Part shown: one piece after another, positions 2,266-53,566 of the stretch
Layout: the number at the start of each line of letters is the position of its first letter
How positions within the stretch are numbered: position 1 is the first letter of the stretch
Source of the DNA: Methylotenera sp.
GTDB taxonomy: Bacteria; Pseudomonadota; Gammaproteobacteria; Burkholderiales; Methylophilaceae
Direction of reading: 5' to 3'
Assembly (NCBI GenBank): GCA_041687795.1
Contig: JBDNJL010000106.1
Span: forward strand, 1 to 54,015
DNA length: 54,015 bases
Made by a program: the position numbers and the translations under genes
Notes under the pieces: model-generated
What the model was told of the DNA's origin: nothing
Database searches by the model: none
What the model saw: the letters and a program-made list of their open reading frames with translations, nothing else

Positions 2266-2295
2266 AAATGTGTCTGTAAAAAAGCGTTAAGTTTT
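2266..2295 (+). repeat. Dispersed 30-bp repeat, copy 1
   Basis: AAATGTGTCTGTAAAAAAGCGTTAAGTTTT, between divergent fhcB and ndk. Confidence 0.95.
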
Positions 2296-2427
2296 CTAGC
2301 TCAAGCCTTAAAGTTATGTGGTTAAGTTTTGATTAAACCTGCTTCAAAAGCAAAGTATTGGTTTATTTTAAGCGCTAAAAATGGTATTTTATCGTTCTTT
2401 TCAATCAGTATTGTTTATGGAGTTGTT

Positions 2428-2835
2428 ATGGCTGTTCAACGCACACTTTCTATCATCAAACCAGATGCAGTAGCAAAAAATGTCATTGGTAAAATCTACA
2501 CACGTTTTGAAAACGCGGGTTTAAAAATCGTTGAGGCTAAGATGGCACAACTTACCCAAGCTGAAGCTGAAGGTTTTTATGCTGTGCATGCTGCTCGCCC
2601 ATTCTTTGGTGATTTAGTTAAATTCATGATATCAGGACCAGTAATGATTCAAGCGCTTGAAGGCGAAAATGCAGTACAAATTAACCGCGATTTAATGGGT
2701 GCTACAAACCCCAAAGAAGCCGCTGCTGGAACGATTCGTGCTGACTTTGCAGAGAGTATTGATGCAAACGCAGTGCATGGTTCAGATTCAGCAGAGAATG
2801 CTGCGATTGAAATTGCTTACTTTTTTAAAAAATAA
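2428..2835 (+). CDS. ndk: Nucleoside diphosphate kinase
   Basis: [15 protein letters not shown]...[14 protein letters not shown] upstream of ATG 2428. The ORF-track start at 2329 is too far upstream. Confidence 0.97.
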
Positions 2836-2851
2836 GGTTTAAGTAAATACT

Positions 2852-3970
2852 TTGGTTAATTTACTCAATTACAATCAGCCCAAATTAGCTGCATGGTTTG
2901 TGGAGCAAGGCGAAAAGCCTTTTCGCGCCAAGCAGTTGATGCGGTGGATGCATCACTTTGGTGTGCATGACTTTGAGCAAATGACGAATATTGCCAAAAA
3001 ATTACGTGAAAAATTAGTTGTCGAGGCTGAAATTACGCTGCCAAATGTGCAGTTAGAACAAGTTTCTAACGATGGCACACGTAAGTGGCTTATTGGCACA
3101 GATGATTTAAAAACAGGTGCTGCTAATAGCATTGAAACTGTTTTTATCCCTGAAGATGATCGCGGTACTTTGTGTATTTCATCGCAAGTAGGTTGTGCGT
3201 TGGAGTGTACTTTTTGCAGCACTGGTCGGCAGGGGTTTAATCGTAACTTAAGCGTGTCGGAAATTATCGGCCAGCTTGCGATTGCGAACCACTCTTTACG
3301 TAACGAAGCTGGCTACGATATGTTGCCTCTTTCTGACCGTATTATTAGCAATGTGGTCATGATGGGTATGGGCGAACCGCTTGCAAATTACGATAATGTC
3401 GTCACAGCGATGCAAATTATGTTGGACGATAGCGCTTACGGCTTAAGTCGCCGCAGAGTGACTTTATCCACTAGTGGAATGGTTTCTGCCATGGATAGGC
3501 TGAAAGAAGATTGCCCTGTATCACTCGCGGTAAGTCTGCATGCGCCTAATGATGCATTAAGAGATGTGATTGTGCCAATTAACAAAAAATATCCACTTAA
3601 AGAGTTAATGGCAGCATGTAATCGTTATCTAGAAAAAGCGCCGCGTGATTTCGTGACTTTTGAATATGTGATGTTGGATGGCGTGAACGATACTGTTGAG
3701 CACGCACGTCAATTGTTAGATGTCGTGAGGAATGTGAATTGTAAGTTTAATTTAATTCCATTCAACCCATTCCCAAATAGCGGATATGAAACTTCTAAAG
3801 CAAGCCATATTCGAGTATTTAGAGATATCTTGATACAAGCAGGGTATGTGGTTACCGTGCGTAAAACCCGTGGTGATGACATTGATGCAGCATGCGGTCA
3901 ATTAGCTGGTAAAGTATTAGATAAAACCAAGCGCAGTGCTAAACATATTTCAATTGAGGCGATTACGTGA
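2852..3970 (+). CDS. rlmN: Dual-specificity 23S rRNA/tRNA m2A methyltransferase (radical SAM)
   Basis: [33 protein letters not shown] start. Confidence 0.97.
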
Positions 3971-4773
3971 AGATGAACTTTAAAGCGCATCAAGTAAAGC
4001 ATGAGGCGGTAAATATTTTAAACAAATTATATATGCTTGCAGTAGTTGCAGTTTTTAGCTTTTGTGTCACTGGCTGCGTGAGTCAACAACAGCAAGAGCG
4101 AGATGTTGAATCGCTAAAAGCGCGCGCCAAAGCGCATACAGATTTAGGCGCTGCATACTTTCAACAAAATCGCCTTGAAATAGCGCTCAATGAGTTTACT
4201 GAAGCGCAAACAATTGATCCTACTTTTGCCTCGGCATACAACGGATTAGGTTTGGTAAATGCTGCATTAGGAAAGTACGATATTGCTGATGCAAACTTCA
4301 AAAAAGCAATTCGACTAGACCCCAATAATTCTGAATCGCACAATAACTATGGCAGTTTTTTATGCGCTAGAACACGCTATGACGAATCAATTTCTGAGTT
4401 TATGGCCGCAGTTAAAAACCCACTATATGCAACGCCGGCGGTTGCATACACTAACGCTGGCATTTGTGCAGCACGGAAAAATGATCTAATAAATGCAGAA
4501 GTTTATTATAAAAGTGCATTGCAAATTGACCCATTATTTAATGCGCCTGCATACCAGTTAGCATTATTGCAATTTAATCGTAATGATGCGTTAGCTGCCA
4601 AAACAACGTTACAAAATGTTCTACTAACTGAACCTTCACCTGAGATTTTGTGGTTGGCGGTTCAAGTTGAACGCGCGTTAGGTTCAAGAGATGCAGAAGC
4701 TAGTTATGCCTTACAACTGAGAAGGCAATATCCAGATTCTGAGCAAGCTAAATTATTACAAAGCGTTAGGTAA
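3967..4773 (+). CDS. pilW: Type IV pilus biogenesis/stability TPR lipoprotein PilW (PilF)
   Basis: Lipobox-like VTGC, TPR repeats, [15 protein letters not shown]; canonical position rlmN-pilW-rodZ. Start codon uncertain. Confidence 0.9.
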
Positions 4774-4775
4774 TT

Positions 4776-51249: not shown

Positions 51250-51633
51250 TTAATAACCAACACGCACCACATCAGGTAAGCTTGCAAGCTCTTCATCGCT
51301 GTACAAACGGCCGCGTGTAATAAAGGCAAAGCCAGTGCCGCAATCTAAAGAAAAAGAACCGCTAGAGCCAGGTTCAGCATCTAAGATTGTATGCATGTTT
51401 TCTGCAAAGCTAAAGTGGCTATCGCCCATGTAAAAAGTCGCATTATTTTCTGTACCTAAAGTACCAAGCATCACATCTGCGGCGCTGCCTTTAAACTCAT
51501 TTGCAGGCATACATAGTGGGCCGCTACCTTCACAGCATCCACCAGATTGTAAAAACGCTATTGGGCCAAATTCGGCGGTTAGTCTATCGATGAGTGCAAT
51601 TGCCGACGGCGTTGCAGAAATACGTTCAGCCAT
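51250..51633 (-). CDS. DUF779 family protein
   Basis: QSGGCCEGSGPLC, GSFSL; typical partner of AldB/ExaC aldehyde dehydrogenases. Confidence 0.88.
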   Translation of the reverse strand: MAERISATPSAIALIDRLTAEFGPIAFLQSGGCCEGSGPLCMPANEFKGSAADVMLGTLGTENNATFYMGDSHFSFAENMHTILDAEPGSSGSFSLDCGTGFAFITRGRLYSDEELASLPDVVRVGY

Positions 51634-51676
51634 ATTGATGCCCCAAACATTTATATTTAAAAAAGCTTATTCAAAT

Positions 51677-51703
51677 AAAAAGGGGCAAGTTAACTCGCCC
51701 CTT
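51677..51703 (-). terminator. Intrinsic terminator after the aldehyde dehydrogenase gene
   Basis: Minus strand AAGGGGCGAGT-TA-ACTTGCCCCTTTTT. Confidence 0.8.
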
Positions 51704-51747
51704 GATATTACTATTCACTTAAGATTAAGCGATTTAACATCTAGCGA

Positions 51748-53268
51748 TTAGAAGAAGCCCAATTTATTAGGATTGTAGCTTACAAGCAAGTTTTTAGTTT
51801 GCTGGTAATGGTCTAACATCATTTTGTGATTTTCACGACCAATGCCAGACTCTTTATAACCACCAAATGCCGCATGAGCAGGGTAGGCATGGTAACAGTT
51901 AGTCCATACACGGCCAGCTTTTATACCACGACCCATACGGTAAGCAGTTGTACCATTGCGCGTCCAAACACCAGCGCCTAGACCGAAGATGGTGTCATTG
52001 GCAATCGCTAAAGCATCAGCTTCATCTTTAAAAGTAGTTACAGCAAGCACGGGGCCAAAAATTTCTTCTTGGAATACGCGCATCTTGTTGTGACCTTTTA
52101 ATAAAGTCGGTTGCACATAATAGCCTTCAGCCAAATCGCCACCAAGTACGTTACGGTTACCACCAATCAATACTTCAGCGCCTTCCTGTTTACCAATATC
52201 AATATAACTCATGATTTTGTTCAATTGGTCTTGTGAAGCCTGCGCGCCTAACATGGTGTTTGGGTCTAGCGGATTGCCTTGTTTAATGGCTTTCACACGC
52301 TCTAAAACACGTTCCATAAATTTATCGTAGATAGATTCTTGAATAATTGCGCGTGATGGGCATGTACATACCTCACCCTGGTTAAATGCAAATAACACCA
52401 AGCCCTCAATTGCTTTATCGAAGAACGCGTCATCTTCATCCATAATGTCTGCAAAGAAAATATTAGGCGATTTACCACCTAGTTCTAATGTTGCAGGAAT
52501 TAAATTACTTGCAGCCGCCTGTGCAATCACACGGCCTGTAGCCGTTGATCCTGTAAAGCCGATTTTAGCGATACGTTTGCTGTTTGCAAGTGGTGCGCCC
52601 ACTTCACGGCCGTAACCGTTTACGATATTGATTGTGCCTGGTGGGAGCAAGTCTGCAATAACTTCCATCATAATTAAAATACTAATAGGCGTGAATTCTG
52701 CTGGTTTCAACACTACACAATTACCAGCAGCCAATGCTGGCGCTAGTTTCCAAGCTGCCATCAAAATTGGGAAGTTCCATGGAATGATTTGACCAATAAC
52801 GCCCAGCGGCTCGTGAAAGTGATAAGCAATTGTGTCGTTGTCAATTTCGCTTAGTGAACCTTCTTGCGCGCGAATTGCACCTGCAAAATAGCGAAAATGA
52901 TCTACCGTCAGAGGAATATCCGCGTTCATCGTTTCGCGAATTGGCTTACCGTTATCCACAGTATCTGCCATAGCAATGAGCGCTAAGTTAGCTTCAATAC
53001 GATCAGCAATTTTAAGTAAGACGTTTGAACGCTCAGTCGTCGAAGTTTTACCCCAAGCGTCAGCGGCATTATTTGCCGCATCTAATGCTAGTTCAACGTC
53101 TTCTGCACTTGAGCGTGCGGCTTTCGTATATGGTTTACCCGTAATTGGTGAAATAACATCAAAATATTCACCTTTAACTGGCGCAACCCATTTGCCGCCA
53201 ATAAAGTTATCGTACTTTGCTTTATATGGAATGGTTACGCCCATGCCTTTTAATATATCTAAACTCAT
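51748..53268 (-). CDS. NAD(P)-dependent aldehyde dehydrogenase (AldB/ExaC/AcoD type)
   Basis: [41 protein letters not shown]. Confidence 0.93.
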
Positions 53269-53535
53269 GCTAACTCCTCTAGTTTTTCTATTGTTAATAT
53301 AGTATTTCTAACCTCTGAAACGCATTTTTTGACCAATAAAACTATATTCTTTTATTCAGATAAAATTTATTCAACCCTTGTAGCGACAAGCCTATTAGGT
53401 AAGATTGCTCTTAATTTAGAGTGTTTTTATTTATCATAAATAATAAAACTACAATAAACCTTAGTACATTTTAAATCAAGCTTAAAACGGTAGCAATTTT
53501 ACAGATTAACTACACTTTTAGGGATTTGCAGTAAA

Positions 53536-53566
53536 TAAACTTAACGGTTTTTTTACAGACACATTT
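53536..53566 (-). repeat. Dispersed repeat, copy 13 (31 bp)
   Basis: Minus strand AAATGTGTCTGTAAAAAAACCGTTAAGTTTA. Confidence 0.93.

What the first reader, a model, noticed from the sequence alone, without database searches (positions are those of the whole stretch)
2266..53566. Unrecognised 30-bp asymmetric repeat dispersed through core genes (13 copies in 54 kb): candidate DNA uptake sequence or chromosome-organising site
Seen: consensus AAATGTGTCTGTAAAAAACNGTTAAGTTTT at 2266+, 8547-, 11069+, 17821-, 20330+, 24178+, 30114-, 35191+, 37659+, 38975+, 43377+, 51202- and 53536-. Copies are single, on both strands, and lie between divergent, tandem and convergent genes of unrelated function, so they do not look like one regulon. 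The element is not a GC stem-loop like REP, has no spacers, and no transposase is in the window. Variation concentrates at particular positions (12-13, 19-20 and the ends), which suggests a protein-read site. Known: the Pasteurellaceae uptake signal is a roughly 30-bp non-palindromic unit made of a core plus two phased A/T tracts, enriched in core genes. The layout here is similar but the sequence is different. Inference: either a new uptake signal (type IV pilus gene pilW is present), a nucleoid or segregation protein site, or the footprint of a mobile element. I do not recognise it from any described family.
Basis: partly seen in the sequence, partly recalled or inferred. Interest (0 to 1): 0.9.

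Follow-up and report, generated by a model that had tools for sequence, protein, structure and literature searches.

The report
Evenly spaced polar DNA self-tag, Methylotenera
An aquatic methylotrophic bacterium carries about 475 evenly spaced copies of a one-directional 34-base DNA word, written even into its protein-coding genes and shared with a sister lineage but not with 360 other genomes of its family, and the word likely tags the cell's own DNA for uptake, as the unrelated uptake sequences of Haemophilus and Neisseria do.

Summary
All 13 copies are real, and the window holds two more. The genome (Methylotenera-like, 1.78 Mb, 89% complete) has 474 copies, against 1 in a reversed control. 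The unit is a rigid two-box 34-bp head; 120 heads carry downstream repeats of the second box at 30±1 bp. Copies show no replication-strand bias and are far more evenly spaced than gene layout explains (CV 0.60 vs 0.95). The 112 coding copies fill long gaps and avoid highly conserved genes. A lineage about 80% identical keeps 10 of 11 aligned sites; 360 family genomes show background only. Copies arose both in place and by insertion, up to 81 bp inside genes. These traits match the genomic signature of DNA uptake sequences, and competence genes are present, though motif-less relatives have them too. Unlike DUS/USS, there are no inverted terminator pairs, there are periodic tails, and head-to-head copies avoid each other within 2 kb. 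No reader protein was found. Best reading: a new uptake tag spread by biased recombination (0.48). Main rival: a polar chromosome-coating protein site (0.25).

The parts
2264..2330 (+). head (2264-2297) plus degenerate downstream second box; divergent gap before the ndk gene
   Evidence: (47 bits)
8510..8578 (-). head (8545-8578) plus tail box reaching the end of the hisS-like gene
   Evidence: (48 bits)
11067..11100 (+). head in a tandem gap
   Evidence: 43 bits
17819..17852 (-). head in the gap before the ZIP-like transporter gene
   Evidence: 40 bits
20328..20392 (+). head (20328-20361) plus degenerate tail; convergent gap
   Evidence: (52 bits)
24176..24209 (+). head inside the 5' part of the efflux adaptor ORF (start codon uncertain)
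   Evidence: (37 bits)
30112..30145 (-). head in a convergent gap
   Evidence: 39 bits
35189..35255 (+). head (35189-35222) plus tail box, between hflX and hflK; this gap is about 35-40 bp longer than in 4 of 4 relatives examined
   Evidence: (54 bits)
37657..37720 (+). head (37657-37690) plus one full 30-bp tail unit before hisZ; this gap is about 90-140 bp longer than in 16 of 17 relatives examined
   Evidence: (51 bits)
38973..39020 (+). head (38973-39006) with a rare palindromic extension that pairs with the first box; hisZ-purA gap
   Evidence: (47 bits)
   Evidence: (25 bits)
43375..43408 (+). coding copy in the ORF 43046-43867, at a 4-residue insertion against 14 of 14 relatives
   Evidence: (35 bits)
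   Evidence: (21 bits)
51170..51234 (-). head with one extra A (51200-51234) plus degenerate tail, upstream of the SRP RNA gene
53534..53568 (-). head with one extra A, upstream of the aldehyde dehydrogenase gene

Best explanation
The 34-bp word is a genome-wide, lineage-specific, polar DNA signal kept about once every 3 kb, and it likely works as a DNA uptake tag: a surface protein of the type IV competence pilus would bind it, so fragments that carry it would be taken up and recombined more often, spreading the word into every stretch not yet covered. Shown: copy number, anatomy (rigid box A plus box B, box B never alone, 30-bp tails), even spacing, gap-filling by coding copies, avoidance of conserved genes and islands, conservation in a sister lineage, and two routes of origin. 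The two routes are change in place at sites that already half-matched, and insertion of head-plus-tail copies.
For: Abundance and symmetry: 474 copies, 239 on + and 235 on -; leading/lagging 238/230 and a flat density when 468 copies are mapped onto complete genome G016. Even spacing: CV 0.60 vs 0.95±0.05 in 500 gene-layout-aware shuffles; 24 of 337 neighbour distances under 1 kb vs 86±7. Gap-filling: 4.8% of 84 coding copies lie within 1 kb of a non-coding copy, vs 37% of random coding positions. Minimum harm: 0.63 copies per 100 kb in genes at least 90% identical to G016, vs 14.7 in genes 60-70% identical; the largest empty stretches are the ribosomal-protein operon, rpoBC and islands; the two frames in which the invariant TTAA reads as stop hold 0 and 1 of 112 coding copies. 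Islands have half the core density, 0.127 vs 0.254 per kb; H. influenzae strain-specific DNA shows the same halving (PMC7811141, passage). Proteome rewritten: three motif-derived peptide patterns occur 71 times in G000 and once in G016. Maintained: 10 of 11 aligned sister-lineage sites have a G000 copy at the same place or in the same gap; within the species, high-information intergenic positions differ at 0.9% vs 2.7% background. In-place origin: G016 DNA under 56 ungapped coding copies already matches 13.6 of 34 consensus bases, vs 9.0±2.6. New Neisseria DUS often face gaps or unrelated sequence (PMC2397512, passages), so insertion does not contradict the model. ComEC (open frame of 822 aa, with a copy inside), ComEA, DprA, PilQ and pilA fragments at contig ends, and a minor-pilin cluster are present.
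Against: No uptake or binding was measured. ComEA, DprA and PilQ are equally present in 4 of 4 motif-less relatives. The only ComP_DUS Pfam hit is an ordinary PilE-like pilin with a 56% ortholog in G016. PilE, FimT and PilV show no unusual charge, and their divergence is in line with the lineage's long branch. Density (0.27 per kb) is about a quarter of that in H. influenzae. There are no inverted terminator pairs: only 2 of 337 neighbours lie under 500 bp apart. Gene by gene there is no core bias: 91 coding copies in 1.23 Mb of orthologous genes vs 21 in 0.33 Mb of the rest, and gaps beside non-orthologous genes are occupied about as often. The 30-bp tails, the 42-bit information content, the dyad covariation and the shortage of head-to-head pairs (8 vs 22±4 under 2 kb) have no counterpart in the DUS/USS papers I read. 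Divergence between strains shows no trend with distance from a copy.
Confidence: 0.48

Rival explanations
1. The word is a nucleation site for an unidentified cytoplasmic chromosome-coating or loop-organising protein. It loads on the head, extends one way along the 30-bp tails and covers roughly 1 kb downstream, and selection keeps the chromosome evenly covered.
For: Rigid box spacing and box B never alone: strong B boxes away from a head are at control level or are heads with a one-base slip. Tails occur only downstream, at about three helical turns (165 intervals, 135 at 29-31 bp). Head-to-head pairs under 2 kb number 8 vs 22±4, reached by 0 of 5000 permutations, while back-to-back pairs are as expected. 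Even coverage. No strand or ori/ter bias.
Against: No candidate reader among 317 of 347 non-orthologous proteins scanned with Pfam or 71 leftovers scanned with NCBIfam. The one genus-unique DNA-binding candidate has 76-80% identical relatives in other phyla. 360 family members do without the word. 14-kb and 10-kb core stretches and a 23-kb contig lack it. The 2-kb cut-off was the strongest of five tried, and a shift statistic reached only z about -2. Known sites of this kind (parS, NBS, matS, SBS; recalled) are palindromic, fewer and regionally restricted.
Confidence: 0.25
2. The word is an AT-rich REP-like hairpin copied around the genome by a domesticated HUH nuclease (RAYT type) whose gene is missing from the assembly. 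The 5' box would be the guide and the tails BIME-like arrays.
For: Gaps with a copy are longer than the G016 gap by a median 63 bp (119 gaps) or 102 bp (52 gaps with a scored tail), vs 6 bp for 724 gaps without. In-frame insertions of 13-27 residues match head plus tail. Copies prefer convergent gaps and gene ends. Stem covariation in non-coding copies: 6.20 vs 5.80±0.04 pairs, and G-C/A-T swap odds ratio 13, p=5e-4. The genome is 88.8% complete.
Against: No Y1 transposase or reverse transcriptase was found. No GTAG foot and no inverted doublets, against the REP definition in PMC8266576 (passages). 112 of 474 copies are coding, and 51 of 78 testable ones have no indel. Coding copies mostly lack the stem, 4.34 vs 4.24±0.09. 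The stem is weak, about -3 kcal/mol as DNA. Insertion alone does not give gap-filling spacing.
Confidence: 0.12
3. The word is a self-mark read by a polar translocating nuclease or defence complex (Chi-like, or acting like type III/ISP restriction, where head-to-head sites matter). DNA lacking it would be degraded, and frequent sites would protect the chromosome.
For: Polarity and head-to-head avoidance. Absence from viral contigs and from a prophage-like contig C160. Many restriction systems and a type II-C CRISPR locus in the genome.
Against: No replication-strand skew. Exclusion acts across strands rather than per strand. 34 bp and 42 bits far exceed Chi or restriction sites (recalled as 5-8 bp). 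The restriction genes found belong to ordinary mobile families.
Confidence: 0.08
4. The copies are single ends of a Tn7/Mu-type transposon (terminal TGT plus repeated transposase boxes), spaced by target immunity and now decaying.
For: Layout of a fixed 5' box with TGT followed by periodic boxes. Insertions. An exclusion zone.
Against: No partner end and no alternation of orientation (76 ++, 83 --, 85 +-, 93 -+). Only IS3-type transposases were found. There is no tail of decayed copies: 20 hits between 8 and 14 bits vs 6 in the control. Sites are conserved at silent positions and built in place. The two inverted copies on contig JBDNGR010000188.1 flank no transposase, and that contig's end is 94% identical to G000.
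Confidence: 0.04
5. The word is a transcription-factor operator or a terminator.
For: Preference for gene ends: 78 copies in convergent gaps, and 15 of 21 copies that overlap a gene boundary supply its stop codon.
Against: Divergent (promoter) gaps are the least occupied. There is no orientation to transcription (109 vs 94 in tandem gaps). None of the six copies in 29500-44500 is called terminator-like. 112 copies lie in mid-gene. No Rfam match.
Confidence: 0.03

Closest known systems
USS of Pasteurellaceae and DUS of Neisseriaceae (DNA uptake sequences)
   Same: Hundreds of non-palindromic copies on both strands; relatively even spacing; present in genes and gaps; stop-containing frames avoided; scarce in highly conserved genes and recent islands; sites conserved; new copies often face gaps (PMC2397512, PMC2817400, PMC7811141, 10.1101/2025.10.24.684340).
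   Different: Different sequence: the DUS and USS cores occur only 1-19 times in G000. Longer, higher-information bipartite unit; lower density; no inverted terminator pairs; 30-bp periodic tails; insertions up to 81 bp inside genes; head-to-head exclusion; confined to two known lineages of one genus; no ComP- or ComN-type receptor singled out; uptake untested.
REP / BIME / REPIN elements with RAYT (TnpA-REP)
   Same: Species-specific 20-50-nt repeats in hundreds of copies, near gene ends, inserted DNA, tandem arrays, stem-loop potential with a conserved 5' foot (PMC8266576).
   Different: No GTAG, AT-rich weak stem, direct rather than inverted arrays, a quarter of copies in coding DNA and mostly made in place, even spacing, no Y1 transposase found.
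Chromosome-organising sites: parS/ParB, NBS/Noc, SBS/SlmA, matS/MatP, KOPS, Chi (properties recalled, not from a call)
   Same: Protein-read dispersed sites; Noc and ParB spread over kilobases from a loading site; KOPS and Chi are polar.
   Different: Those are short or palindromic, and either regionally restricted or skewed with replication. This word is 34 bp, polar, uniform around the chromosome and unskewed.
Tn7/Mu-family transposon ends (layout recalled)
   Same: TGT-containing terminal box followed by repeated boxes; spacing exclusion recalls target immunity.
   Different: No second end, no cognate transposase found, copies maintained rather than decaying.

Membership tests
DNA uptake sequences (DUS/USS kind) | hundreds to thousands of copies of one non-palindromic motif, on both strands | tested here: met
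   474 copies, 239+/235-; 238/230 leading/lagging
DNA uptake sequences (DUS/USS kind) | relatively even genome-wide spacing | tested here: met
   CV 0.60 vs 0.95±0.05
DNA uptake sequences (DUS/USS kind) | in coding DNA, in permissive genes and stop-free frames | tested here: met
   112 coding copies; frame counts 32/10/0 and 1/31/38; 0.63 vs 14.7 per 100 kb by gene conservation
DNA uptake sequences (DUS/USS kind) | depleted in recently acquired DNA | tested here: inconclusive
   half density in multi-gene islands, but no difference gene by gene; one comparison genome only
DNA uptake sequences (DUS/USS kind) | competence machinery present | tested here: met
   also present in motif-less relatives
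DNA uptake sequences (DUS/USS kind) | inverted pairs forming terminators | tested here: not met
   2 of 337 neighbours under 500 bp; 8 of 474 with a palindromic extension
DUS or USS proper (a dialect of a known family) | sequence identity to the DUS or USS core | tested here: not met
   known cores occur 1-19 times, not enriched
DNA uptake sequences (DUS/USS kind) | sequence-biased DNA uptake through a specific pilin receptor | not testable with these tools
   no culture; pilin charge and divergence uninformative
REP/BIME/RAYT | conserved tetranucleotide (mostly GTAG) at the foot of a palindrome | tested here: not met
   profile has no such foot; weak AT stem
REP/BIME/RAYT | mostly intergenic, in inverted doublets | tested here: not met
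   112 of 474 coding; tails are direct repeats
REP/BIME/RAYT | associated Y1 HUH transposase | tested here: inconclusive
   no PF01797 hit in an 88.8% complete genome
Tn7/Mu/IS ends, MITEs | paired inverted ends and a cognate transposase | tested here: not met
   no alternation; only IS3-type transposases among 317 proteins scanned; ISfinder itself not available
Chi/KOPS-type polar sites | orientation skewed with replication | tested here: not met
   238 vs 230, and 123 vs 113 on the G-rich strand
parS/NBS/matS/SBS-type sites | palindromic site restricted to, or excluded from, a chromosome region | tested here: not met
   polar profile; 0.26-0.47 copies per ortholog in all 20 bins of the G016 map, assuming gene order is broadly kept
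CRISPR repeat or Rfam RNA family | match to the repeat or to a covariance model | tested here: not met
   the genome's CRISPR repeat is unrelated; the only Rfam hit in the window is SRP RNA

The most novel reading that the evidence does not exclude
A kind of chromosome-wide polar lattice not described before: a self-copying 34-bp nucleation site with 30-bp extension boxes, read by a protein that is neither a known uptake pilin nor a known nucleoid factor. It acts one way over about 1 kb, arose within one genus-level lineage, lengthened about a third of its gene gaps and inserted whole peptides into core enzymes.
Probability: 0.28. Interest if true: 0.92.

Novelty: new variant of a known kind. 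Interest (0 to 1): 0.8.

Why it matters
The papers I read place sequence-specific DNA uptake in two host-associated families only (10.1101/062562; 10.1101/2025.10.24.684340). A third, unrelated tag in a free-living methylotroph, present in two sister lineages and not found in the 92 other genomes of the genus, would be a young, independent origin. It would allow a direct test of how uptake specificity arises and whether drive or selection spreads such tags, because tagged and untagged relatives share the same competence genes. Either way the copies show a short repeat entering core proteins both by stepwise change and by in-frame insertion.

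Tried and rejected
Rfam at gathering thresholds: only SRP RNA. 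Exact 25-mer in viral contigs: 0. BLAST of one copy against phage and plasmid records: chance-level only, best E 0.05 and 0.04 among the rows shown. Coxiellaceae MAG contig as a donor transposon: rejected, since its end is 93.8% identical to G000 C44 and no transposase was recognised between the two copies, so it is likely a mis-binned relative. A different abundant word in relatives: none in complete G016 (top 12-mers 14 copies); box B alone at most 3 copies in 92 genus genomes. The other relatives were not scanned de novo. Reverse transcriptase and Y1 transposase: none. Four tyrosine recombinases, two cut by contig ends, not linked to the word. HARE-HTH protein at C162:15130-15948: unique in the genus (1 of 93) but 76-80% identical to widespread homologs, so set aside. 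CRISPR repeat unrelated. Pilin charge and divergence: uninformative. Enrichment at synteny breaks: none. Neighbouring copies more alike than random pairs: no. A second word or skew flanking the sites: none beyond gene-end effects. Strain divergence against distance: flat; SNPs are over-dispersed (2.1), which is not specific. Sequencing runs: no RNA holder listed; contigs of 4 runs laid on 33600-53590 showed no clear gain or loss of a copy and were confounded by repeats. Dropped before counts: of 112 coding copies, 21 had no G016 ortholog and 13 lay outside the alignment. 30 of 347 non-orthologous proteins, one of 3352 aa, and all under 80 aa were not Pfam-scanned. Genes were called with my own simple finder.

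Full report
1. Observation. All 13 copies are in the window at the coordinates and strands given. Two have an extra A in the central tract. A genome-trained profile adds two weaker coding copies, at 41952(-) and 48668(-). Forty simulated windows gave no hit of 14 bits or more. The window is contig C132 of G000 (1,776,134 bases, 162 contigs, 88.8% complete). Cluster members of two window proteins are named Methylotenera sp., so I infer that genus. Runs that hold the stretch are labelled freshwater, mat, biofilm, estuary and similar.

2. Anatomy. The profile converges on 474 copies of at least 14 bits, against 1 in the reversed genome; 239 are on + and 235 on -. About 7 more have a one-base slip, and two pairs at contig ends may be duplicates. 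The head is 34 bp, consensus AAAAATGTGTCTGTAAAAAACCGTTAAGTTTTTT: box A (the TGTGTCT part), an A-tract, box B (the GTTAAGT part, at least 95% conserved at each position) and a T-tract. It carries 41.9 bits, against 12.9 needed to specify 474 sites (profile built from the hits, no small-sample correction). Spacing between the boxes is nearly rigid. Strong B boxes away from a head are at control level or turn out to be slipped heads. 120 of 474 heads carry one to three downstream repeats of the box-B region, 135 of 165 intervals at 29-31 bp; control positions gave 1 in 1896. Tail number varies between strains by whole 31-bp units. There are few weak copies: 20 hits between 8 and 14 bits, vs 6 in the control.

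3. Dyad. The A-tract and T-tract can pair around box B. Non-coding copies show covariation: 6.20 pairs vs 5.80±0.04 in 1000 shuffles, or 6.17 vs 6.02±0.035 without the main sub-family; a G-C/A-T swap has odds ratio 13 in 48 informative copies. Coding copies show little on average (4.34 vs 4.24±0.09), though 6 have a perfect stem vs 0.7 expected, and the mean fold is weak. A hairpin is therefore not required. The covariation could come from pairing, from template-switch correction of quasi-palindromes (recalled mechanism), or from copying of whole variants.

4. Where the copies are. By my own gene calls, 315 copies are intergenic, 112 coding, 21 overlap a gene boundary and 26 are at contig edges. 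Convergent gaps are most often occupied and divergent gaps least. In tandem gaps there is no orientation to transcription (109 vs 94). Fifteen of the 21 boundary copies supply the stop codon. The two frames in which the invariant TTAA is a stop hold 0 and 1 copies. Mapped through orthologs onto complete G016, 468 copies are spread flat and split 238/230 between leading and lagging strands. Coding density falls to 0.63 per 100 kb in genes at least 90% identical to G016, from 14.7 at 60-70%. The longest empty stretches are the ribosomal-protein operon, rpoBC and two mainly accessory regions; multi-gene islands have 0.127 copies per kb vs 0.254 in core runs. Against a simple core bias: gene by gene the coding density is about equal (91 in 1.23 Mb vs 21 in 0.33 Mb), and gaps beside non-orthologous genes are occupied as often.

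5. Spacing. Neighbour distances have CV 0.60. Five hundred shuffles that keep the numbers per gap class and in coding DNA give 0.95±0.05 (minimum 0.82). Only 24 of 337 distances are under 1 kb, vs 86±7, and 4.8% of 84 coding copies lie within 1 kb of a non-coding copy, vs 37% of random coding positions. Coding copies thus sit where others are far away. The exclusion depends on orientation: head-to-head pairs under 2 kb number 8, vs 22.2±4.0 in 5000 permutations within class (none reached 8), while back-to-back pairs (24) are as expected. This cut-off was the strongest of five (the others gave p 0.05, 0.03, 0.007, 0.07), and a shift statistic reached only z about -2. I read it as a moderately supported sign that a site acts further on its tail side.

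6. Who has it. In 360 other genomes of the family a relaxed pattern is at control level (at most 5 matches, vs 424 in G000), as in 300 genomes drawn from the order (at most 3). Box B alone gives at most 3 in 92 genus genomes. The exact 25-mer occurs in one other GTDB contig, filed as Coxiellaceae but 93.8% identical at one end to G000; in no viral contig; and in 101 metagenome loci. Most of these are 92-100% identical to G000, twelve are 78-83% identical (nine from assembly Ga0247817), and 11 had no alignment of 200 bp or more. Of 11 motif sites inside the ~80% alignments, 7 have a G000 copy at the same position, 3 in the same gap shifted by 15-25 bp, and 1 has none. Coding motif positions there differ at 1 of 81 vs 18% background, but these are about three sites, from loci picked by exact match. 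Among near strains 92 sites are shared, three loci differ by small indels (one loses the head), and high-information intergenic positions differ at 0.9% vs 2.7%.

7. How copies arise. Of 78 coding copies aligned to G016, 51 have no gap, 24 have extra residues (7.4% in control windows), 2 fewer and 1 is net zero; identity at the site is 38% vs 71%. Under 56 ungapped copies the G016 DNA already matches 13.6 of 34 consensus bases vs 9.0±2.6, which fits change in place or homology-assisted replacement. With wider flanks, 13 of 68 sites show 13-27 extra residues. Several are clean insertions of head plus tail in loops of core proteins, which I recognise from memory as MoeA, riboflavin synthase, RecN and YqgE; about five lie in poorly aligned regions. 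For the MoeA-like gene, 28 of 28 matched relatives are 17-25 codons shorter over the matched span (arithmetic), so the gain is in this lineage. Syntenic gaps with a copy are longer than in G016 by a median 63 bp (119 gaps) or 102 bp (52 with a scored tail), vs 6 bp (724 without). Short-patch double illegitimate recombination is a described route for such ectopic copies (10.1101/2023.11.22.568220, abstract); applying it here is inference.

8. ComEC, ComEA, DprA, pilM/N/O, fragments of pilQ and pilA at contig ends, and a minor-pilin cluster are present; four motif-less relatives have ComEA, DprA, PilQ and a pilin too. The ComP_DUS Pfam hit is a PilE-like pilin conserved across the genus, with ordinary charge, and the lineage is a long branch throughout. 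Pfam on 317 of 347 non-orthologous proteins and NCBIfam on 71 leftovers found IS3 transposases, a type II-C CRISPR locus with an unrelated repeat, many restriction systems and a HARE-HTH protein, but nothing tied to the word. No reverse transcriptase or Y1 transposase was found.

9. Mechanism. Gap-filling even spacing, no strand bias, minimum-harm placement, rewritten peptides (71 vs 1), conservation and lineage specificity are what the uptake-sequence papers describe: PMC2397512 (passages), PMC2817400 (abstract and one results section), PMC7811141 (passages, which also reports the Maughan 2010 drive model; that paper was not held), 10.1101/062562 (passages), 10.1101/2025.10.24.684340 (abstract and introduction) and PMC12616744 (abstract). 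I commit to an uptake tag spread by biased recombination (0.48). The tails, the high information content, the lack of inverted pairs and the head-to-head exclusion fit a polar coating protein at least as well (0.25). A REP-like element with a missing enzyme (0.12; definition from PMC8266576, passages), a defence self-mark (0.08), transposon ends (0.04) and an operator or terminator (0.03) follow.

10. Novelty. It is not a DUS or USS dialect, a REP, an Rfam family or a CRISPR repeat by the tests in the table. Ten literature searches found no description. 'DNA uptake sequence' with 'Methylophilaceae' gave 0 papers; three motif words gave one unrelated yeast paper; a six-term search for new evenly spaced motifs gave 0; searches listed nothing on it (listings only). 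Most subscription papers, RegPrecise and ISfinder were not searchable, and I read no supplements; a repeat survey table could hold the word. Earlier notes of this scan have nothing on this genome or sequence but describe comparable evenly spaced words in other phyla; these are unchecked and not evidence. Verdict: a real, previously unrecognised lineage-specific signal that works most like an uptake sequence and differs from both known families; new variant of a known kind, interest 0.8.

Noticed in passing
L038:68-92 (Ga0105045_10088775): An exact copy sits at the end of a 49% GC contig whose genes (Sel1, MoaA-like, NadA) are only 32-40% identical to G000/G016 homologs: possibly transfer to another organism, an island or a chimeric contig.
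   Followed up: partly
L001/L002 (JBDNGR010000188.1): A contig in a Coxiellaceae MAG is 93.8% identical at one end to G000 C44 and is likely mis-binned; two inverted copies flank about 5.7 kb of genes, most without Pfam match.
   Followed up: partly
G000:C124:1-3185 and C20: Type II-C CRISPR-Cas locus (Cas9 in two contigs, Cas1, Cas2, an array of 36-bp repeats), not found in G016.
   Followed up: no
G000:C162:15130-15948 (L349:1498-2316): HARE-HTH protein with a GIY-YIG-like C-terminal part (name from a homolog's label), inserted right after mutS; 1 of 93 genus genomes, 76-80% identical to homologs in other phyla.
   Followed up: partly
G000:C61, C25, C8/C18, C103, C93, C78; L025, L028, L101: Many restriction-modification genes (split HpaII-like, type III, type ISP, GmrSD; DpnI/DpnII-like in related strains); GATC and CCGG are strongly avoided, observed/expected 0.42 and 0.37.
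   Followed up: no
G000:C133:29958-36450: Rhodopsin gene with a full retinal-synthesis cluster, not found in G016.
   Followed up: no
L012 and L021, hisZ-purA gap (G030, G280): Two relatives carry a GC-rich palindromic repeat pair in the same gap where G000 has the word; it looks like a classical GTAG-type REP doublet.
   Followed up: no
window:51019-51115 (-): SRP RNA gene (Rfam RF00169, 65.6 bits), about 55 bp downstream of the tail of a copy.
   Followed up: no
G000:C73:769, C37 and C44 copies: Some heads have a short tandem duplication of box A just upstream, 13-15 bp apart, suggesting local slippage on that side as well.
   Followed up: no
G000:C56 (23.4 kb), C30 (13.2 kb), C160: Contigs with no copy at all: a PEP-CTERM/two-partner secretion region with a 3352-aa protein, a second type II secretion cluster, and a prophage-like fragment.
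   Followed up: partly
window:30182-31852 (-) and 20418-20765 (-): Two ORFs (about 556 and 115 aa) with no NCBIfam match; the longer one has no homolog in G016.
   Followed up: no
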